From: a virus
Lineage: Duplodnaviria; Caudoviricetes
Strand: one strand, 5' to 3'
IMG/VR virus record: IMGVR_UViG_3300003465_000009
Span: 1-54,011 of that record
Length of the DNA: 54,011 nucleotides
Made by a program: the position numbers and the translations under genes. Shown here piece by piece: positions 46,915-53,091 of this stretch. The notes below the pieces were generated by a model. The model was given only the letters and a program-made list of their open reading frames with translations. It did not search any database and had not been told where the DNA came from. Each line of letters opens with the position of its first letter. The first letter of the stretch is position 1.

Positions 46915-47107
46915 GGATTATCTCCGCTAGGGTCATGTGCAACAGGCGACGCACGTCCGCCTCTTTCACTTGCACGCAATGCCCGACGTTGACGGCACTC
47001 GTAACGACTTCATCAATTGACCGCCTGTCCCCATGCCGAACGTCTGAGCCGAGCACGAGTGACAACGCCCAAAACGCTTCGCGTTCGCCTTTTGTCATCG
47101 CAGCCAT
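46883..47107 (-). CDS. hypothetical protein
   Basis: GGAGG RBS. Confidence 0.6.
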   Translation of the reverse strand: MAAMTKGEREAFWALSLVLGSDVRHGDRRSIDEVVTSAVNVGHCVQVKEADVRRLLHMTLAEIIRGEVPDDPAR

Positions 47108-47128
47108 ACCGCCTCCGCCATCACGACT

Positions 47129-47953
47129 CTATGTCGTGGAAACTATAGCGGCTGGCATTTGCCACCGGCAACCACAGTCGAACCGCTCCATTCTCTCCGG
47201 GTCGGAGACCACCCACTCTCCGATCCTGACAGCCAGTCGCATGGTTTCAGCGTTATTTTCGCAGCCCAACACGGATCGCAGGTGTTCGAACCCCGCCCGC
47301 TCGTGCGGCCGTAGCCGGTAAACCCGCTGCTGGCCGTCATGCCGAACGCTCGAATTATCGACCTTGAATTGTCCGGCGATGTCAGGCAGTTCAGCAATGA
47401 CGTTCAACGCCAAGCGGATGCACTGGACTATGCCGTCGCTAATTTGTTCGAGCCAAAGGGCTCGCATGACAGCGGATAACGCTTGCTCATCGGCTTCGCA
47501 AAGCCGTATCGGTGAAAGCTGATTGGTGACCGGCGAGTATGGAGCCGTAGGCGGTGCATCCGGGCCTCGAAGCATGGCATTCATGCGCCTTCGATCTTCG
47601 CCGTTTTCCTGCGGTGTACCCCAGCGAAGGTTGTCTAGTCTGCAGTTTGCCGGATCAGGGTCGGGATCGTGGCACGCTTGCATCCCATCGGGGCATGGTC
47701 CAACGAACGCCTCCAGCACTAACCGATGTACTAATTTCGAGAACTGTTTTCCGCTGCGACTGAGCGTAACTTGAAGATAGCCATGCTCATTCGGACTTGG
47801 TTTCAGTCGCCTCAAGTGATCGCTGAGATACGCCTCCAGCCATCGGTTGGTGGAATTTCTTCGCACGGCCCAACACGACCAGACTGACCCATCGTTGCCG
47901 ACGCGATAGCCTGGGAATTCCAGGATGTCACGGTACTCAATAGGTTCGCTCAC
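47129..47953 (-). CDS. NUMOD4-HNH endonuclease fused to an RHH-like domain
   Basis: YRDILEFPGYRVGNDGSVWS; VHRLVLEAFVGPCP..QACH...NCRLDNLRWGT..EN; GTGA overlap. Confidence 0.85.
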   Translation of the reverse strand: MSEPIEYRDILEFPGYRVGNDGSVWSCWAVRRNSTNRWLEAYLSDHLRRLKPSPNEHGYLQVTLSRSGKQFSKLVHRLVLEAFVGPCPDGMQACHDPDPDPANCRLDNLRWGTPQENGEDRRRMNAMLRGPDAPPTAPYSPVTNQLSPIRLCEADEQALSAVMRALWLEQISDGIVQCIRLALNVIAELPDIAGQFKVDNSSVRHDGQQRVYRLRPHERAGFEHLRSVLGCENNAETMRLAVRIGEWVVSDPERMERFDCGCRWQMPAAIVSTT

Positions 47954-48342
47954 TGCCAGTCTCCCATTTTCAGACCAAGATTTACGATTACCAAATCCAC
48001 CTCGGATTCGGTTATGGAGTCGTCCGCTCGGCCGCGAAGCCGATTGACGGTCAGTCGACAATAGCCAAAAGGGTCCGCTAGTTTCTTCCACGCCAACTGA
48101 ACAACAATCGGCACTCTCGAATAATCGCCGCATTCTCGGTGATCGTCCTCACACAAATGCAACAGCGCCGCCCGGATGCTTAAAGCCATCGCTCTTGCCG
48201 GTCCCCTGGCTATCTCATGGAGCTGCTTCGCACGTTTCAGGCATCCCGGTCTCTGACACCAGCGGAACTCCGATCGGTACGACTCTCGAACTGGTTGTGC
48301 CTGACGGTTCTTTTTGGCGCGACGCGGAGAGTATGGACGCAT
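47950..48342 (-). CDS. HNH-like (NinG/Ref-like) Zn nuclease
   Basis: CQRPGC...LHEI...LHLCEDDH. Confidence 0.6.
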   Translation of the reverse strand: MRPYSPRRAKKNRQAQPVRESYRSEFRWCQRPGCLKRAKQLHEIARGPARAMALSIRAALLHLCEDDHRECGDYSRVPIVVQLAWKKLADPFGYCRLTVNRLRGRADDSITESEVDLVIVNLGLKMGDWQ

Positions 48343-48362
48343 TGCGATGGTATCCAGAGAGA

Positions 48363-48761
48363 TTATCCAACGTCCCGAACGGCATCGTCGTTTCCGAATA
48401 TCGCCTCACCCCGTGTTGCTCTTGCTCGCAACACGTCGAGCTTTTCTGGGCTGCCGGGTAGTGATCTCGCCGGTTCGCTCGGTTGGGGTGGCTGGGGCTG
48501 CTCAATCACCATGTTGTTCTGAATGGCGGTTTTGACTTGACCTCCCAGGATGTACTCAAAGAAATACTTCAAGGCGTCCTTGTCGCCTGCCTTTGCTCGC
48601 TTGACGATGCCGGCAACGATGTCTTTCACGTCCGATTCATTCACGCCGTTGAAGACGGCTGCTCGCAACCTCGCTTGCGCTGTTTGGCTTTCTTCGACTC
48701 GTTTCTGTTTTGGAGCGATGATGCTACGGTTTGATCCGCTTGGCTTTGAAGTTGTGGCCAC
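48363..48761 (-). CDS. hypothetical protein (TerS/DUF5681-like helical motif)
   Basis: IVKRAKAGDKDALKYFFEYILG; GAGGAG RBS. Confidence 0.7.
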   Translation of the reverse strand: MATTSKPSGSNRSIIAPKQKRVEESQTAQARLRAAVFNGVNESDVKDIVAGIVKRAKAGDKDALKYFFEYILGGQVKTAIQNNMVIEQPQPPQPSEPARSLPGSPEKLDVLRARATRGEAIFGNDDAVRDVG

Positions 48762-49504
48762 GTTGATGCGTCTCCTCGAATGATGGTTAGTGGGATTGCG
48801 TAGATGTCAGATGAACGGCCCTTACCCTGACCGGTCACACGGTGCCCTCTCAGAAGTCGCTGCACGAAACCACGGGATGCGAGATAAGCCAGATACGAAC
48901 CCCGGCCGCCGCGCCGGCGACGTTCGCCTGCATCCCATTTCAGGCTCTTTCGCGAGCCCAACCACGGAAGGCCGATGGCTTCTGCAATCTCGCGCCGCGT
49001 CATTGGCCCACGTTCATAAATCGCGTTCATAATTTGCACGGCGCGCGGCGGAAAATCGGAAGGCCATCCGCTATCGGTCGCGTATTCTTCAAACCGCTTT
49101 GAGCGGATCTCGGCCAACGATTTCACCCCGGCCGCTGCGCATTGAGCCTTCGTCTTCTCAGACACTCGCTCTCGACGATGCGATGAGTAGGCGTTATGCG
49201 GCAGACCCAGCTGCGTTCGAGTATCTCGAACCGTCTCCCGACTTACTCTTGGTCCGGTGTAAGCCGTTGCGATTTCTGAATCAGACCAACCAAGAGTGTT
49301 CTTTTCACGAATGAACGCATCCAGTTGGCCATCATGCTGCGGATGACGATTCGATAATCCAAAACGATCGGCCGCTTGATAGACGGCTGACTTCGTGGCT
49401 CTCAATTGCAGAGCACACCACGCAGCGCCGCGACGTCGGTAATGCCGGCGAAGAAATGCCTTCGCTGTGTCGTCCCAGTTCCGTTTCGTTCGTGTCTTGG
49501 CCAC
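48641..49504 (-). CDS. multi-HTH DNA-binding protein
   Basis: WDD...FLRRHY, GWSDSEIA, GPMTRREIAEAIG wHTH. Confidence 0.75.
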   Translation of the reverse strand: MAKTRTKRNWDDTAKAFLRRHYRRRGAAWCALQLRATKSAVYQAADRFGLSNRHPQHDGQLDAFIREKNTLGWSDSEIATAYTGPRVSRETVRDTRTQLGLPHNAYSSHRRERVSEKTKAQCAAAGVKSLAEIRSKRFEEYATDSGWPSDFPPRAVQIMNAIYERGPMTRREIAEAIGLPWLGSRKSLKWDAGERRRRGGRGSYLAYLASRGFVQRLLRGHRVTGQGKGRSSDIYAIPLTIIRGDASTWPQLQSQADQTVASSLQNRNESKKAKQRKRGCEQPSSTA

Positions 49505-49518
49505 TGCAACCTGTCCAT

Positions 49519-49776
49519 CTACGCTTGCACGTACTCTCTTGACTCGTCTCCGGTCGGACGGCGACGCCCACTATGTGGATGCCGCATCCATCCACTGGGC
49601 TCGCCGATCCCATCCCACGCGGCTAGTGCCGCAACTGCGGCTTCTGGCGTGTCGTATCACCAGCAGTCATCGACGGACCAATGACCGTCGCCGACGTTGA
49701 TTCTCGCTCGACCAAACGTCAGCGGAACAACTTCCGCGATTCGTCCATCTGGTAACTTTTTCACGATCGCATTCAC
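49519..49776 (-). CDS. candidate selenoprotein / TGA read-through protein, 85 aa (in-frame TGA at 49659-49657)
   Basis: GTGA-coupled start; frame open past TGA to a TAG 14 nt before the next gene; MNAIVKKLPDGRIAEVVPLTFGRARINVGDGHWSVDDCW-U-YDTPEAAVAALAAWDGIGEPSGWMRHPHSGRRRPTGDESREYVQA. Confidence 0.65.
49616..49651 (-). promoter_or_regulatory. bacterial SECIS-like stem-loop
   Basis: CACGC...GCCGC-AGTT-GCGGC...GCGTG; apical loop starts 20 nt after the UGA and contains GU. Confidence 0.5.
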
Positions 49777-49988
49777 AGGATCATTGACAACGGAATCGCT
49801 GGCGCTGCGGGAGGCATTTGCTCTTGGAGCTCCCGGTCAAACTGACCGGAGTCGTCGTCTTTGTGGACGGCGATGCGATGAACAAACACCTTGCACTTAA
49901 CGCCGCTCTCTGTGACGCCTTCCCATAGACGCACGGGAACGCCGTCGATCGTCGTAATCTTTTCGGTCGCTTCGATCTGAATTCGCAT
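49773..49988 (-). CDS. conserved small phage protein
   Basis: AGGAGG RBS; GVPVRLWEG.T..G...FV.RIAV. Confidence 0.8.
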   Translation of the reverse strand: MRIQIEATEKITTIDGVPVRLWEGVTESGVKCKVFVHRIAVHKDDDSGQFDRELQEQMPPAAPAIPLSMIL

Positions 49989-50018
49989 GGTCCCCTCCTT
50001 TGTCCGCTTCGGGTGTGT

Positions 50019-51515
50019 CTAAGCGGCGATAGCCGTGGTAATAGCTGCCGCCACATCGGGGCATACTGAGTTACCGATTTGCTTTGTCACATCGCCCTTG
50101 TTTCCATGAAACAAATAATGCGATGGGAATCCTTGAGCTAGAGACAGTTCAGCGTTAGCCAGCATTCGAAAGCCGACGTCCGCGACTCCTAGCTCTTGCA
50201 TCGTCGCGTACAGTCGGCGCTCTCCGTCTGTGCGTGGAGCAATCGCTACGGCCGATTGAATGACCGCGTAGCCAAGCCCACAACGATCACGAGTTGTCAA
50301 CGTGCAGAGTGGGTCGGTAACCGGGTATGCCTTGCCGTTGCCGTAGTAGGTGACGATGAACGGCATTATCAAATCGCCTGCGCCGCGAGTCGTCACCGTA
50401 GGTAGCGCATCGCTTAGGCCGTGCGAACGGTGCTGTTGCCCATCACGTTTGTTAACGTTCGGCTTGATAAATGGAATCGCGATGCCAGTCTCACCACGAT
50501 GCGCCGTGGTGATTGTCGGTAGTGTGCCACCGATCGAGGACAGCCGGCCGCCGTGCGTCAACTGGTAAATGAATGGCACTGCAAGATGAACGCCGCCATT
50601 AGCCGTCTGCGTCGGTGTCGGCTGTTCGATTGAACGCGGCGCGCCTCCGCCAAGTGATGACAAGGTGAAAGGCACTGCCATTCCATGATGAGCACCGCTG
50701 GCCGTCACGGTACTTATGGGTTGGTCGATCGACCGAGCCGTCATGTTGTTCCGCAATTCGACTACGAACGGTTCAACAAACTTTCGAAGCCCAGCGTCAA
50801 TCCTTAAAAGAGTTTTGTCTTTCAACGGATGTTTGCGTGCGAAGACGCTTTGACATGGTATCGACCAGTCGATGATTTCCGCCGCCGATCGCCACCGGTT
50901 CAAACGAAACCCCGGTAATTCACCACCGACACGTCGGGAGTGCGAAGGCTCTGGCCATCGGATAGAGCGATTACCCTTGCGGGCAACAACAAACAATCGC
51001 GTTCTCGATGTTGCCGCCCCATAGTCGGCAGCATTCAATAGCCGGTCATCGACTCTATATCCAGCAGAACGAATCGCTTCGATCCACGCAGAAAAGAAAC
51101 GACCTTGATAAGAAACCAAAGGCCTACCGTCAGCACCTACCGGCCCCCAGGATCTGAACTCTGGGACGTTCTCGATTACGATCCATTGAGGGCGGTGAAA
51201 CTCAACCCATCGCATCACGTCCCATGCACCGCTTCTAGCTTGATCGTTTGTCGGTCTGCCACCACGAGCCCGGCTGTGGTGAATGCATTCTGGCGAAGCG
51301 AAAAGCAAATCAATCTTCGGGCACTCACTGGGATTGACCTGATCTAACCGACTGTTGATATGCCTGGCATGCGGGAAGTTGGCGGAATGCGTCTCGACTG
51401 CAACCTGCCAATGGTTCACGGCGCAAACGACTCTCGCGGCTCCAGACTGTTCCGCTCCCTGTGATGTGCCACCCGCGCCGCAAAACAAATCCGCCGCTCT
51501 AAGAATTGAAGTCAT
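50019..51515 (-). CDS. DNA (cytosine-5)-methyltransferase
   Basis: DLFCGAGG, ASPEC, IENV, YG..TSRTRLF, RML, KQIGNSV. Confidence 0.95.
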   Translation of the reverse strand: MTSILRAADLFCGAGGTSQGAEQSGAARVVCAVNHWQVAVETHSANFPHARHINSRLDQVNPSECPKIDLLFASPECIHHSRARGGRPTNDQARSGAWDVMRWVEFHRPQWIVIENVPEFRSWGPVGADGRPLVSYQGRFFSAWIEAIRSAGYRVDDRLLNAADYGAATSRTRLFVVARKGNRSIRWPEPSHSRRVGGELPGFRLNRWRSAAEIIDWSIPCQSVFARKHPLKDKTLLRIDAGLRKFVEPFVVELRNNMTARSIDQPISTVTASGAHHGMAVPFTLSSLGGGAPRSIEQPTPTQTANGGVHLAVPFIYQLTHGGRLSSIGGTLPTITTAHRGETGIAIPFIKPNVNKRDGQQHRSHGLSDALPTVTTRGAGDLIMPFIVTYYGNGKAYPVTDPLCTLTTRDRCGLGYAVIQSAVAIAPRTDGERRLYATMQELGVADVGFRMLANAELSLAQGFPSHYLFHGNKGDVTKQIGNSVCPDVAAAITTAIAA

Positions 51516-51538
51516 TGAAAATCCTGCTTAAACGATTG

Positions 51539-52864
51539 CTACTTTTGGATGACAACCATCCGGGTTGACACGCCGGTCCGGTTGAACGACTCGATGCTGT
51601 TAAAAGAATTGGCCGGCAGCGCCTCGATCTCCGCGCCGACATACGCGAGCCATTGCTCGAACTCGTCTGAGCCTCGCGGCGTCATGATCGCCACCAACCG
51701 ACCGCCGTCTTTCAGCAGCTCGTAAGCGCGACGCACATGCTTCTCGTCTTGGCGTCGTTCAAATGGAGGGTTCATCAAGACTTTGTCGAACAGCTCGCCC
51801 GCCTTGAATTCTTCGAGGAAGTCACCGTGGACGGTCGCATAACCTTTCAGCAACAGGATCTCGACCAGCGAGTGACGCAGCTCGCACACGATCAACGCAG
51901 TGTTTGGACAGCTGCTGTTGATTTCGTCGGCGATTGAGCCGATGCCGGCCGACGGCTCCAGCACGCGGTCACCCTCGCGAATGTCTGCCGCTTCGAGCAT
52001 GCGAGCCACAACACTGACCGGGGTCGGAAAGAACCCGTCAATCTTCACGCCACGCAGTTTGCTGATCGCGTGGTCGAGGTCTCGCTTCCGTCGCTCCGCG
52101 GCCTCACGCTCGACGTCGGCCGATGATTTCACATTGTCGACCAGCTCACGCAATGCAACCGCTGCAGGTGACTTGTCCGCAAACTCATCGGTCTCCCGAT
52201 AGTCGTAATACCCTTGGGAGGCTCCGCGGGTGCGCATCATTTCGCAGACTTGGGCTTTGGTCTTGATCTCCAAAAGGATGTATGGGACTTGTCCGGCGTC
52301 GTAGGCTCTGGCCAATGCACGCAATGCGGCCTGCGCCCGCTGCAGGTTGTGCCCATCATGAACACGAGATGCGTGCTCGCGCCCCCGCTTCGGCGTCCAC
52401 CCCTGGGACATGGGAGCCAGCTTGGCCTCGATCGTTGACTCCATCGCGTCGGCCAGTTCGCGAAACTTCTCAGCCCGGTTCACGACGGCCGGCTTGGGCG
52501 TCGACTTCGGGGCTCGCTCGATATGCGGTTTACTGACAGCGGGTTCGCTATTCACCGGCACGGCCGGCGCGGTCTCACGTTGAATCGACCGAGCGACAGT
52601 TTTCTCGCCCAACTGATCGCGAAGCCACTCGGCGAACTCAGTCGCGGTCGATTCCTTTCTGAAGCCAAACCCCGCCGGGATCTCCTGCCACGCTCGCGAG
52701 TACCAGCCGCCGGTCTCAACGGCTTTCGCGTAGACTTTACGGAACAGCGGGGTATCAAGATTCCGGCCGGCGACAACCAACCAGTAATCGAATCGTCGGC
52801 GCTCGTTGAAGTGCTTTTGAACATCGACGCCAGCTGCAGGTCGTGAGAGAGTTGCTGTAGACAT
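51539..52864 (-). CDS. N6-adenine-type class I DNA methyltransferase with N-terminal extension
   Basis: FFPTP, VLEPSAGIG, GDFL, MNPPF, GGRLVAI; AGGAG RBS. Confidence 0.85.
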   Translation of the reverse strand: MSTATLSRPAAGVDVQKHFNERRRFDYWLVVAGRNLDTPLFRKVYAKAVETGGWYSRAWQEIPAGFGFRKESTATEFAEWLRDQLGEKTVARSIQRETAPAVPVNSEPAVSKPHIERAPKSTPKPAVVNRAEKFRELADAMESTIEAKLAPMSQGWTPKRGREHASRVHDGHNLQRAQAALRALARAYDAGQVPYILLEIKTKAQVCEMMRTRGASQGYYDYRETDEFADKSPAAVALRELVDNVKSSADVEREAAERRKRDLDHAISKLRGVKIDGFFPTPVSVVARMLEAADIREGDRVLEPSAGIGSIADEINSSCPNTALIVCELRHSLVEILLLKGYATVHGDFLEEFKAGELFDKVLMNPPFERRQDEKHVRRAYELLKDGGRLVAIMTPRGSDEFEQWLAYVGAEIEALPANSFNSIESFNRTGVSTRMVVIQK

Positions 52865-52932
52865 CCGTGCTCCTAGATGCTCTTGATCCAACCTATTCGT
52901 TTAGATTTTGCGATTGTTGGAAGTCTGCCGGC

Positions 52933-53091
52933 TTATTCAGCAGAGGGCGCCTCGCGCTCGTAATCGGCTTCAACTTCGGCTTCCACACGATCCGCCCAGT
53001 TGCGCAGAATTCTCGCGGGAAGCTCGAATATTGCAGCCCATTGGCGAGCGATATGGGCTAAGTGATACCAGTCGATAGCGAAGATGTTCAT
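52933..53091 (-). CDS. small hypothetical protein (52 aa, possibly leaderless)
   Basis: MNIFAIDWYHLAHIARQWAAIFELPARILRNWADRVEAEVEADYEREAPSAE; the ATG lies about 9 nt after a TATACT box. Confidence 0.45.
   Translation of the reverse strand: MNIFAIDWYHLAHIARQWAAIFELPARILRNWADRVEAEVEADYEREAPSAE

What the first reader, a model, noticed from the sequence alone, without database searches (positions are those of the whole stretch)
49519..49776. Hidden phage gene with an in-frame TGA and SECIS-like hairpin: candidate phage-encoded selenoprotein
Seen in the sequence: the 270-nt gap between two operon genes is filled by a single frame. It starts with a GTG overlapping the upstream TGA (GTGA coupling), meets TGA at codon 40 in D-D-C-W-[TGA]-Y-D, then continues 45 protein-like codons (AAVAALAAWDGIGEPSGWMRHPHSGRRR) to a TAG 14 nt before the next gene. 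A hairpin GCCGC-AGUU-GCGGC with lower stem CACGC/GCGUG follows, its loop 20 nt after the UGA. Established: bacterial SECIS elements lie just 3' of the UGA with a G(U) in the apical loop and recruit SelB. Inference: from memory (unverified), related phage proteins read W-C-Y here, so the TGA would replace a conserved Cys and give a CxU motif. The phage would then use host Sec machinery, or make a short or long product depending on selenium. The ORF track misses this gene.
Basis: partly seen in the sequence, partly recalled or inferred. Interest (0 to 1): 0.92.

Follow-up and report, generated by a model that had tools for sequence, protein, structure and literature searches.

The report
Phage gene with selenocysteine-type UGA
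A small phage gene carries a stop codon that is kept in over a hundred relatives, sits where other relatives have cysteine, and is followed by the kind of RNA hairpin that bacteria use to insert selenocysteine, so it is probably a phage-encoded selenoprotein.

Summary
On the minus strand, 49776-49519 is one frame: GTG start overlapping the upstream TGA, in-frame TGA at codon 40 (49659-49657), 45 more codons, then TAG.

It is not an error or an isolated nonsense mutation. Pooled viral, metagenome and genome loci gave 109 distinct stop-type sequences: 107 TGA, 2 TAG.

A profile search found 1376 relatives. In the best 150 plus two earlier hits, the aligned residue is Cys in 79 of 151, Asp/Glu in 40.

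A 5-9 bp hairpin starts 14 nt after the stop, with an N-G-U-N' loop at +21..+24. It covaries and persists where the peptide differs. My strict version of the published bacterial SECIS constraints passes 91 of 109 stop-type against 4 of 30 Cys-type genes. E. coli fdhF has the same GGUC loop 2 nt closer.

TGA is a normal terminator here. No suppressor tRNA, tRNA-Sec, selB or selD was found in the phage records searched.

Best reading (0.7): a host-SelB-dependent selenoprotein of unknown function. Hosts and selenium incorporation are untested.

The parts
49519..49776 (-). Whole gene: 85 sense or recoded codons plus the TAG stop. Codon 40 is TGA.
   Evidence: Homologs cover both halves.
49774..49776 (-). 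GTG start codon, overlapping the TGA stop (49773-49775) of the upstream 71-aa ORF (GTGA).
   Evidence: The N-terminus MNAIVKKLPDGR aligns with the starts of relatives such as MTLYKKIMPDGR.
49657..49659 (-). In-frame TGA at codon 40, the proposed selenocysteine codon.
   Evidence: Stop kept in 109 distinct relatives (107 TGA, 2 TAG). Aligned with Cys in 79 of 151 sense-codon proteins.
49628..49641 (-). SECIS-like hairpin GCCGC-AGUU-GCGGC. The 5-bp stem starts 15 nt after the UGA in the window; in most relatives a sixth pair makes it 14 nt.
   Evidence: Family consensus hairpin and covariation. Passes the bSECIS constraints at -8.4 kcal/mol, spacing 20.
49633..49636 (-). Apical tetraloop AGUU at +21..+24 after the UGA. 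It belongs to the family pattern N-G-U-N' in which N and N' are complementary.
   Evidence: Loop counts: GGUC 66, AGUU 12 of 109. N-G-U-N' is present in 101 of 109 stop-type and 2 of 30 Cys-type sequences.
49519..49521 (-). TAG, the true stop of the gene.
49773..49988 (-). Upstream 71-aa ORF of unknown function, ending in TGA (context).
   Evidence: Shows that TGA terminates translation in the neighbouring gene.
48641..49504 (-). Downstream 287-aa ORF with weak helix-turn-helix matches (context).

Best explanation
The gene encodes an 85-residue phage protein in which UGA codon 40 is read as selenocysteine.

Proposed mechanism (inferred): when the ribosome reaches the UGA, the hairpin 14-15 nt downstream lies just outside the mRNA entry channel. 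Its G-U apical loop is bound by the host's SelB carrying Sec-tRNA(Sec), which decodes the UGA in competition with release factor 2. The phage supplies only the mRNA signal; tRNA(Sec), SelA, SelB and SelD come from the host.

The protein belongs to a large, unnamed family of small phage proteins. At this site, roughly half the family has Cys and about a quarter has Asp or Glu. The site lies in a beta-strand in the middle of a single compact domain, so the 39-residue termination product is probably a by-product rather than a second functional protein.

Shown here: the conserved stop, the Sec/Cys pairing, the covarying SECIS-like hairpin specific to the stop-type genes, and normal use of TGA as a terminator elsewhere in the phage.

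Inferred: SelB dependence, selenium insertion, and any role of residue 40 as a nucleophile or ligand. The protein's function is unknown.
For: 1. Conserved stop. 31 of 31 viral-locus sequences including the window have TGG-TGA-TAY. All 82 metagenome or genome loci have a stop at the site. Pooled with a second viral scan, there are 109 distinct stop-type contexts: 107 TGA, 2 TAG.

2. Sec/Cys pair. The profile search found 1376 proteins at E <= 1e-3. In the best 150 plus P0003, the aligned residue is Cys in 79 of 151. TGC or TGT occurs in 35 of the 80 loci. All three cultured-phage homologs that I translated (Caulobacter phages CcrBL9 and C2, Sinorhizobium phage Phosso) have Cys.

3. Hairpin covariation. 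92.2% of cells are paired, with 28 double-change cells against 7.9 +/- 2.3 in shuffles (0 of 500) and at most 7 in slid controls.

4. The hairpin persists where the peptide differs. Stems of 7-9 bp occur with VVAVLQQ, ESGLLS, LPAWLA, VIALLS and SLAVRE in place of AAVAAL.

5. The hairpin is tied to the stop.
- An uninterrupted stem of at least 6 bp occurs in 94 of 109 stop-type and 8 of 30 Cys-type sequences (Mann-Whitney p = 9e-9).
- My strict implementation of the four published bSECIS constraints passes 91 of 109 (85 of them at spacing 20) against 4 of 30 at scattered spacings.
- The same filter passes 10 of 159 in-frame TGAs with open flanks in the window, one of them this site.

6. Agreement with the published consensus.
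- Stem 6-8 bp with a conserved loop G about 20 nt after the UGA (PMC4605307, passage read).
- Loop 3-9 nt, G in the first two loop positions, N1 and N2 pairing, spacing 16-37 nt, MFE <= -7.5 kcal/mol (PMC13188914, Fig. 2 legend read).
- E. coli fdhF has the loop GGUC at spacing 18.

7. TGA is an ordinary terminator here. It ends 39 of 75 open frames of at least 150 codons.

8. The AF2 model (pLDDT 94.9) is a single domain with residue 40 inside strand 37-41.

9. Host hints, both weak.
- The one phage contig with a TGA-type gene found in genome bins sits in two bins. One of them (G007) has selA (523.8 bits), selB (343 bits) and tRNA-Sec (66.3 bits), all above their cut-offs.
- The Caulobacter vibrioides control genome gave no selA match, and the two Caulobacter phage homologs that I translated carry Cys.
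Against: - No host is known for any TGA-type phage, so the presence of Sec machinery is untested. The G007 link rests on binning only: the contig has 70% GC against 64.7% for the bin, and the same contig also sits in bin G006, which shows no selA, selB or tRNA-Sec above cut-off.
- TGA-type loci span 32-72% GC, which implies very diverse hosts. Only 21.5% of sequenced bacteria use Sec (PMC5029168, passage read). Even so, no sense-codon form appeared among the closest relatives.
- Two loci (L036, L044) have TAG with an intact GGUC hairpin. Standard tRNA(Sec) does not read UAG. UAG-Sec with a CUA anticodon has a precedent in Blastococcus saxobsidens (PMC5330540, S4 legend read).
- There is no conserved partner Cys, Ser or Thr and no classical redox motif. 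The site holds Asp, Glu or Gln in 47 of 151 homologs.
- Rfam gave no match. Bacterial SECIS elements are said to be poorly represented there (preprint 10.64898/2026.04.03.716425, passage read).
- The window's own hairpin is weak: 5 bp, -8.4 kcal/mol, with a competing 6-bp alternative.
- The filter is my own script, not bSECISearch. E. coli fdhF fails its no-bulge stem rule.
Confidence: 0.7

Rival explanations
1. SelB-independent programmed read-through. The conserved hairpin, perhaps through a ribosomal or phage factor, slows termination so that a near-cognate tRNA reads the stop. The full-length protein then carries a standard residue at position 40, and the stop acts as an expression throttle that works in any host.
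For: - The stop is universal in relatives that span 32-72% GC.
- Two TAG variants keep the hairpin.
- The site tolerates many residues in sense-codon homologs.
- No Sec genes were found in the five phage records searched.
Against: - No such hairpin-driven read-through signal is known to me in bacteria (recalled).
- The element matches the SECIS consensus in stem length, loop G-U and spacing.
- A conserved loop sequence points to a trans-acting reader rather than a mere roadblock.
- Trp, the usual UGA misreading (recalled), appears in only 4 of 151 aligned proteins. One of those is really a TGA on its contig.
- Cys dominates the sense forms.
- UGA followed by U is not a leaky context in E. coli (recalled).
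Confidence: 0.17
2. Genome-wide stop-codon reassignment or a phage suppressor tRNA: TGA is read as Trp or Gly (code 4 or 25), or is suppressed late in infection.
For: One database protein (P0003) was called with W at the site, which shows that some pipeline read its contig with TGA as sense.
Against: - TGA ends 39 of 75 long open frames in the window, including the gene immediately upstream.
- The window holds only tRNA-Met.
- Among 103 tRNA genes listed in the stretches examined of relatives G001-G004, none has a TCA, CTA or TTA anticodon.
- No tRNA-Sec hit exceeds the Rfam cut-off in five records.
Confidence: 0.03
3. The real product is only the 39-residue peptide, and the downstream frame is conserved for another reason. 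Alternatively, the gene is a pseudogene or the TGA is a sequencing error.
For: ORF tracks call only the 39-aa piece. One relative (L085) has TGA followed by TAA and may be broken.
Against: - The stop is shared by 109 distinct sequences from independent assemblies.
- Residues 41-85 show a protein-type conservation pattern (EPxGWMRHPxxGRRRPxGD..EY) with varying third positions.
- The same region is part of uninterrupted proteins in the 150 best-scoring relatives fetched, out of 1376 found.
- The model is a single domain spanning the stop.
- No in-frame start codon follows the TGA.
Confidence: 0.02

Closest known systems
Bacterial selenoprotein genes with an in-ORF SECIS, with E. coli fdhF (formate dehydrogenase H) as the type case
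   Same: - In-frame UGA followed within the coding sequence by a short hairpin.
- The apical loop is GGUC in fdhF and in 66 of 109 phage sequences.
- Loop spacing is 18 nt in fdhF and 20 nt here.
- Cys-containing homologs exist.
   Different: - Carried by phages rather than a cell.
- An 85-residue protein of no known family or fold.
- No bulged U in the stem and no conserved lower stem.
- No redox partner residue.
- Two relatives use TAG.
- SelB binding is untested.
Cys-form homologs in cultured jumbo phages: Caulobacter phage CcrBL9 gp257c (AXQ69281.1), Caulobacter phage C2 gp253c (UTU08481.1) and Sinorhizobium phage Phosso XYS97833.1, all annotated as hypothetical proteins
   Same: Same protein family: W/Y-C-Y/F at the site and the C-terminal EPxGWxxHPKTxRxRxxxD motif.
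   Different: They have TGC or TGT (Cys) instead of a stop. As a group, the Cys-type genes lack the conserved hairpin.
UAG-encoded selenocysteine in Blastococcus saxobsidens AhpC (PMC5330540, S4 Fig legend read; Mukai et al. 2016 recalled, not held in the library)
   Same: A stop codon other than UGA, followed by a bSECIS, is read as Sec. This could explain the two TAG relatives L036 and L044.
   Different: The hosts of L036 and L044 are unknown. Their loci have 64-65% GC. No tRNA(Sec) with a CUA anticodon was examined here.
Selenoproteins of eukaryotic viruses, for example the molluscum contagiosum glutathione peroxidase (recalled; of PMC6769590 I saw only the search listing)
   Same: A virus encodes a Sec protein and relies on the host's Sec machinery.
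   Different: Those use the eukaryotic 3'-UTR SECIS and belong to known enzyme families. This case is a bacterial-type in-ORF SECIS in a phage protein of unknown function.
Leaky UGA read-through in phage Q-beta, giving the A1 protein (recalled)
   Same: A phage UGA has to be read through to make a longer product.
   Different: As I recall, Q-beta adds an optional C-terminal extension to a complete coat protein, inserts Trp and needs no hairpin. Here the stop lies inside a single domain and carries a conserved hairpin.

Membership tests
Bacterial SECIS (consensus model as given in PMC13188914, Fig. 2A legend) | Apical loop of 3-9 nt on an upper stem of 4-16 bp, immediately downstream of an in-frame UGA | tested here: met
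   Window: 4-nt loop on a 5-bp stem. Family: median uninterrupted stem 7 bp, and at least 5 bp in 106 of 109.
Bacterial SECIS (consensus model as given in PMC13188914, Fig. 2A legend) | At least one G in the first two loop positions, mostly N1-G-[G|U]-N-N2 with N1 and N2 pairing | tested here: met
   The window loop is AGUU. N-G-U-N' with complementary N and N' at +21..+24 occurs in 101 of 109 stop-type sequences and 2 of 30 Cys-type sequences.
Bacterial SECIS (consensus model as given in PMC13188914, Fig. 2A legend) | Spacing of 16-37 nt between the UGA and the apical loop | tested here: met
   20 nt in the window and in 85 of the 91 passing relatives. E. coli fdhF has 18 nt.
Bacterial SECIS (consensus model as given in PMC13188914, Fig. 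2A legend) | Minimum free energy of -7.5 kcal/mol or lower | tested here: met
   Window hairpin: -8.4 kcal/mol. All four constraints are met by 91 of 109 in my no-bulge implementation. The 18 that fail include some with visibly intact GGUC hairpins. E. coli fdhF itself fails the no-bulge rule, so the filter is strict.
Bacterial SECIS (consensus model as given in PMC13188914, Fig. 2A legend) | Binds SelB and is required for Sec insertion | not testable with these tools
   Needs binding assays, or reporter assays with loop and stem mutants in wild-type and selB-deleted hosts.
Selenoprotein gene (comparative criteria) | Homologs with Cys aligned to the UGA, and conservation on both sides of it | tested here: met
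   Cys in 79 of 151 aligned proteins and in 35 of 80 viral loci. Residues 41-85 are conserved as protein.
Selenoprotein gene (comparative criteria) | The organism that translates it has selA, selB, selC and selD | tested here: inconclusive
   Hosts are unknown. Of the two genome bins that hold a TGA-type phage contig, G007 has selA, selB and tRNA-Sec above cut-off and G006 does not. selD was not searched in those bins. Five phage records have no selB or selD, and no tRNA-Sec above cut-off.
Selenoprotein gene (comparative criteria) | Selenium is incorporated at the UGA position | not testable with these tools
   Needs 75Se labelling or mass spectrometry.
Rfam SECIS families | A covariance-model match | tested here: not met
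   No match up to E = 10 in window 49400-49900. A preprint (10.64898/2026.04.03.716425, passage read) says bacterial SECIS elements are poorly represented in Rfam.
Stop-codon-recoded phages (TGA or TAG reassigned, with a suppressor tRNA) | Many genes interrupted by the same stop codon, which is not used as a terminator | tested here: not met
   TGA ends 39 of 75 long open frames in the window, including the gene directly upstream.
Stop-codon-recoded phages (TGA or TAG reassigned, with a suppressor tRNA) | A phage-encoded suppressor tRNA | tested here: not met
   The window has only tRNA-Met. None of the 103 tRNA genes listed in the stretches of G001-G004 examined has a stop anticodon. The window record is about 60% complete, so absence is not proven.

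The most novel reading that the evidence does not exclude
The hairpin may be a host-independent recoding signal that resembles a SECIS but works without SelB. It would promote read-through of UGA, and in two lineages of UAG, in bacteria of any lineage. That would explain why the stop is never replaced by a sense codon across relatives spanning 32-72% GC. It would be a new class of bacterial read-through stimulator.

A milder version: Sec decoding is used as a sensor. The phage makes the full protein only when the host has selenium and active SelB, so the UGA acts as a switch on host physiological state.
Probability: 0.17. Interest if true: 0.9.

Novelty: new member of a known kind. Interest (0 to 1): 0.76.

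Why it matters
If selenium insertion is confirmed, this would be, as far as my searches show, the first family of bacteriophage-encoded selenoproteins. It has more than a hundred distinct members in soil and freshwater viromes.

- It would show that phages exploit the host's selenocysteine recoding machinery.
- It would give a sequence marker restricting the hosts of these phages to Sec-using bacteria.
- It would supply a very compact natural SECIS (6-bp stem plus GGUC tetraloop) with rich natural variation for studying SelB recognition.
- It exposes an annotation blind spot. Gene callers split or drop this gene, and at least one database entry reads the codon as Trp.

Literature basis. Full-text searches listed no paper on phage selenoproteins. 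A 2026 review of prokaryotic selenoproteomes (PMC13188914) has no occurrence of 'phage', 'virus' or 'viral' in its main text.

Tried and rejected
**Sequencing error or isolated nonsense mutation.** Rejected: the stop is shared by 109 distinct sequences.

**Alternative genetic code or phage suppressor tRNA.** Rejected on stop usage and tRNA content.

**Family searches on the read-through protein and on longer homologs.**
- Pfam and NCBIfam gave no match for the read-through protein. PHROGs gave only two weak matches (E 0.15 and 0.23).
- Pfam on ten longer homologs gave only one sub-threshold match.

**Fold searches with the AF2 model.** None gave a convincing match, so no function was inferred.
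- Foldseek against PDB: best E = 0.69 (AcrF1).
- BFVD: best E = 0.06, an uncharacterised phage protein.
- VIA-align wide: best Z = 4.7.

**Gene neighbourhood.** Of the 11 neighbouring window proteins, 10 had no tblastn match in the 30 viral loci and one (o577) matched in one locus (L004). Context therefore gives no functional clue.

**Tree of 299 family members**, with the site and the hairpin region masked. It was too poorly resolved to say whether the stop-type is one clade: 37 parsimony changes, and the largest pure clade had 15 tips with no support. No claim is made.

Not conserved.

**Sec-containing formate dehydrogenase in bin G007**, sought as an example of a host SECIS. No match had an internal stop.

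**Sequencing runs.** None was listed for window 47000-53000, and no RNA holder was listed.

**Rfam.** No match.

**Papers not held.** Mukai et al. 2016 could not be read by DOI or PMC id. A search for SECIS + GGUC + SelB found no paper.

Full report
**What is in the window.**
The feature lies on the minus strand.
- Reading 49776 to 49519 gives one frame: GTG, 38 sense codons, TGA (49659-49657), 45 sense codons, TAG.
- The GTG overlaps the TGA that ends the upstream 71-aa ORF.
- The TAG lies 14 nt before the next ORF.
- The ORF list shows only the 39-aa piece.
- After the TGA comes GCCGC-AGUU-GCGGC (49641-49628), with the loop starting 20 nt after the stop.
- On its own this fold is not special: z = -1.30 against shuffles.
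- The same bases can also form a competing 6-bp hairpin.

**The stop is conserved.**
- The read-through protein has no Pfam or NCBIfam match, and only two weak PHROGs matches (E 0.15 and 0.23).
- A word-based protein search found two full-length relatives.
- A scan of viral contigs gave 31 loci. All 30 that cover the site, plus the window, read TGG-TGA-TAY.
- A metagenome scan found 130 relatives, of which the best 80 were kept. A genome scan gave 2 loci. All 82 have a stop at the site.
- One of the two database proteins, P0003, shows W at the site. Its own contig (L040) has TGA there, so that W is a gene-calling artefact.
- After a second viral scan, the pooled set holds 109 distinct stop-type contexts: 107 TGA and 2 TAG.
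- One locus, L085, has TGA followed by TAA and may be broken.

**Sense-codon relatives mostly have cysteine.**
- A profile of the family scored against 1.84 billion representatives found 1376 proteins at E <= 1e-3 and 679 at E <= 1e-10. The best 150 are mostly full length across the site.
- In a MAFFT alignment of these plus P0003 (151 proteins), the column of the TGA holds:

| Residue | Count |
|---|---|
| Cys | 79 |
| Asp | 26 |
| Glu | 14 |
| Gln | 7 |
| Trp | 4 |
| Arg, His, Tyr, Thr | 3 each |
| Val, Ile | 2 each |
| Leu, Gly, Asn, Phe, Ser | 1 each |

- Of the four Trp, one is the TGA artefact above and the other three carry the hairpin-encoding peptide, so they may be the same artefact.
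- In the second viral scan (148 relatives, best 80 kept) the codon is TGA in 41, TGC or TGT in 35 (one read by eye after a mis-anchor), GAC in 3 and TAC in 1.
- tblastn against 50,697 phage records found 10 records: nine phages of Caulobacter vibrioides and one Sinorhizobium phage. The three I translated all have Cys (W-C-Y or Y-C-F).

**The hairpin is real, and it is tied to the stop.**
- In an ungapped alignment of 30 sequences, RNAalifold finds one helix (columns 30-35 with 40-45) closing a 4-nt loop.
- 92.2% of cells pair. 28 cells changed on both sides, against 7.9 +/- 2.3 in shuffles (0 of 500 reach it) and at most 7 when partners are slid.
- Part of the stem comes free with the peptide Ala-Ala-Val-Ala-Ala (GCN GCN GUN GCN GCN). 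The pair at the Ala third positions, however, takes six standard pair types.
- Relatives with quite different peptides keep stems of 7-9 bp at the same place, with G-U in the loop: VVAVLQQ, ESGLLS, LPAWLA, VIALLS, SLAVRE.
- Comparison of stop-type and Cys-type sequences:

| Measure | Stop-type (n = 109) | Cys-type (n = 30) |
|---|---|---|
| Uninterrupted stem of at least 6 bp | 94 | 8 |
| N-G-U-N' loop (N, N' complementary) at +21..+24 | 101 | 2 |

- The loop starts at +21 in 89 of 109 stop-type sequences.
- The stem-length difference gives Mann-Whitney p = 9e-9.

**Comparison with the known signal.**
- A structural paper states that bacterial SECIS hairpins have 6-8 bp stems and a conserved loop G about 20 nt after the UGA (PMC4605307, passage read).
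- A 2026 review gives four constraints: loop 3-9 nt on a stem of 4-16 bp; G in the first two loop positions, with N1 and N2 pairing; spacing 16-37 nt; MFE <= -7.5 kcal/mol (PMC13188914, Fig. 2 legend read).
- My own strict script, which allows no bulges, passes:
  - 91 of 109 stop-type sequences, 85 of them at spacing 20;
  - 4 of 30 Cys-type sequences, at scattered spacings;
  - 10 of 159 in-frame TGAs with open flanks in the window, one of them this site.
- The window's element passes at -8.4 kcal/mol.
- E. coli fdhF, read from NC_000913.3, has the loop GGUC at spacing 18. It fails my no-bulge rule, which shows the filter is conservative.
- Rfam gave no match. A preprint notes that bacterial SECIS elements are poorly represented there (10.64898/2026.04.03.716425, passage read).

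**Alternatives.**
- TGA ends 39 of 75 long open frames in the window, so it is a normal terminator.
- The window has only tRNA-Met.
- Large relatives (166-180 kb) carry big tRNA arrays. None of the 103 genes listed has a stop anticodon, and no tRNA-Sec hit exceeds the Rfam cut-off.
- No selB or selD is encoded in the five phage records searched.
- SelB-independent read-through remains possible. It is favoured by the wide GC span of the relatives (32-72%), by the two TAG variants and by the tolerance of the site. I know of no precedent in bacteria (recalled).
- UAG-encoded Sec has a precedent in a soil actinobacterium (PMC5330540, S4 legend read).

**Host hints.** Both are weak.
- The only TGA-type locus in 185,579 species genomes is an 83-kb phage contig. 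It encodes a tape measure protein, a portal and a terminase, and it was binned into two MAGs.
- One bin, G007, has selA, selB and tRNA-Sec above their cut-offs. The other, G006, has none.
- GC content and tetranucleotide usage do not settle which bin, if either, is the host.
- The Caulobacter vibrioides control genome gave no selA match. The two Caulobacter phage homologs that I translated carry the Cys form.

**The protein.**
- AlphaFold2 with 150 sequences gives a confident single domain (pLDDT 94.9): four strands, a helix at 44-53, then short strands. Residue 40 lies inside strand 37-41.
- The 39-residue termination product would therefore be an incomplete fold.
- No solved or predicted viral structure matches convincingly.
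- The gene's neighbours are essentially not shared among relatives: only 1 of 11 window proteins matched, in 1 of 30 loci.
- Function is unknown. A site that takes Sec, Cys, Asp, Glu or Gln suggests a nucleophile or a ligand, but that is inference only.

**Verdict.** The gene is most likely a phage-encoded selenoprotein decoded through a canonical bacterial-type SECIS (confidence 0.7). The decoding mechanism is a known kind. The family and its phage setting appear unreported in the literature I could search. Selenium insertion and host competence remain to be shown.

Noticed in passing
L123-L127 (records G001, G002, G003 of relatives): Phage relatives of 166-176 kb carry very large tRNA sets. 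G001 has 47 tRNA genes in about 27 kb, covering nearly all amino acids. G003 has 30 and G002 has 25.
   Followed up: partly
L125:4617-4691: ARAGORN reports a tRNA with a four-base anticodon (cgat) of undetermined identity within the tRNA array of G003. It could be a frameshift-suppressor-like tRNA or a degenerate gene.
   Followed up: no
L043 and L096 (the same metagenome contig of 132,733 bp): One contig carries two different TGA-type copies of the gene about 26 kb apart.
   Followed up: no
L085:~1476-1721: One relative has TGA immediately followed by TAA (W-stop-stop-D) with an intact 8-bp GGUC hairpin. It is probably a recently broken copy or an assembly error.
   Followed up: partly
L036 and L044: Two relatives have TAG instead of TGA, with intact GGUC hairpins. 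Both share the unusual N-terminal motif SVDPLTFGRAR, which suggests one lineage that switched stop codon.
   Followed up: partly
window 50019-52891 (-) and 47129-48133 (-): Upstream of the gene lie two adjacent DNA methyltransferase genes: a C-5 cytosine type of 498 aa and a 450-aa protein whose C-terminal half matches large phage methyltransferases. Downstream lies an HNH endonuclease.
   Followed up: no
P0003 (contig of L040): A public protein record gives Trp at the site although the DNA has TGA, so the source called this contig with TGA as a sense codon. P0005, P0068 and P0143 may be the same artefact.
   Followed up: partly
window 49621-49641 (-): The 3' arm of the conserved hairpin can instead pair with the next bases (UGCGGC-ACUA-GCCGCG, 6 bp), giving two mutually exclusive hairpins in the window's copy.
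   Followed up: no
L171: A Cys-type relative (TGC) still has GGTC at +21..+24 but with a degraded stem. It may be the remnant of a Sec-to-Cys conversion.
   Followed up: no
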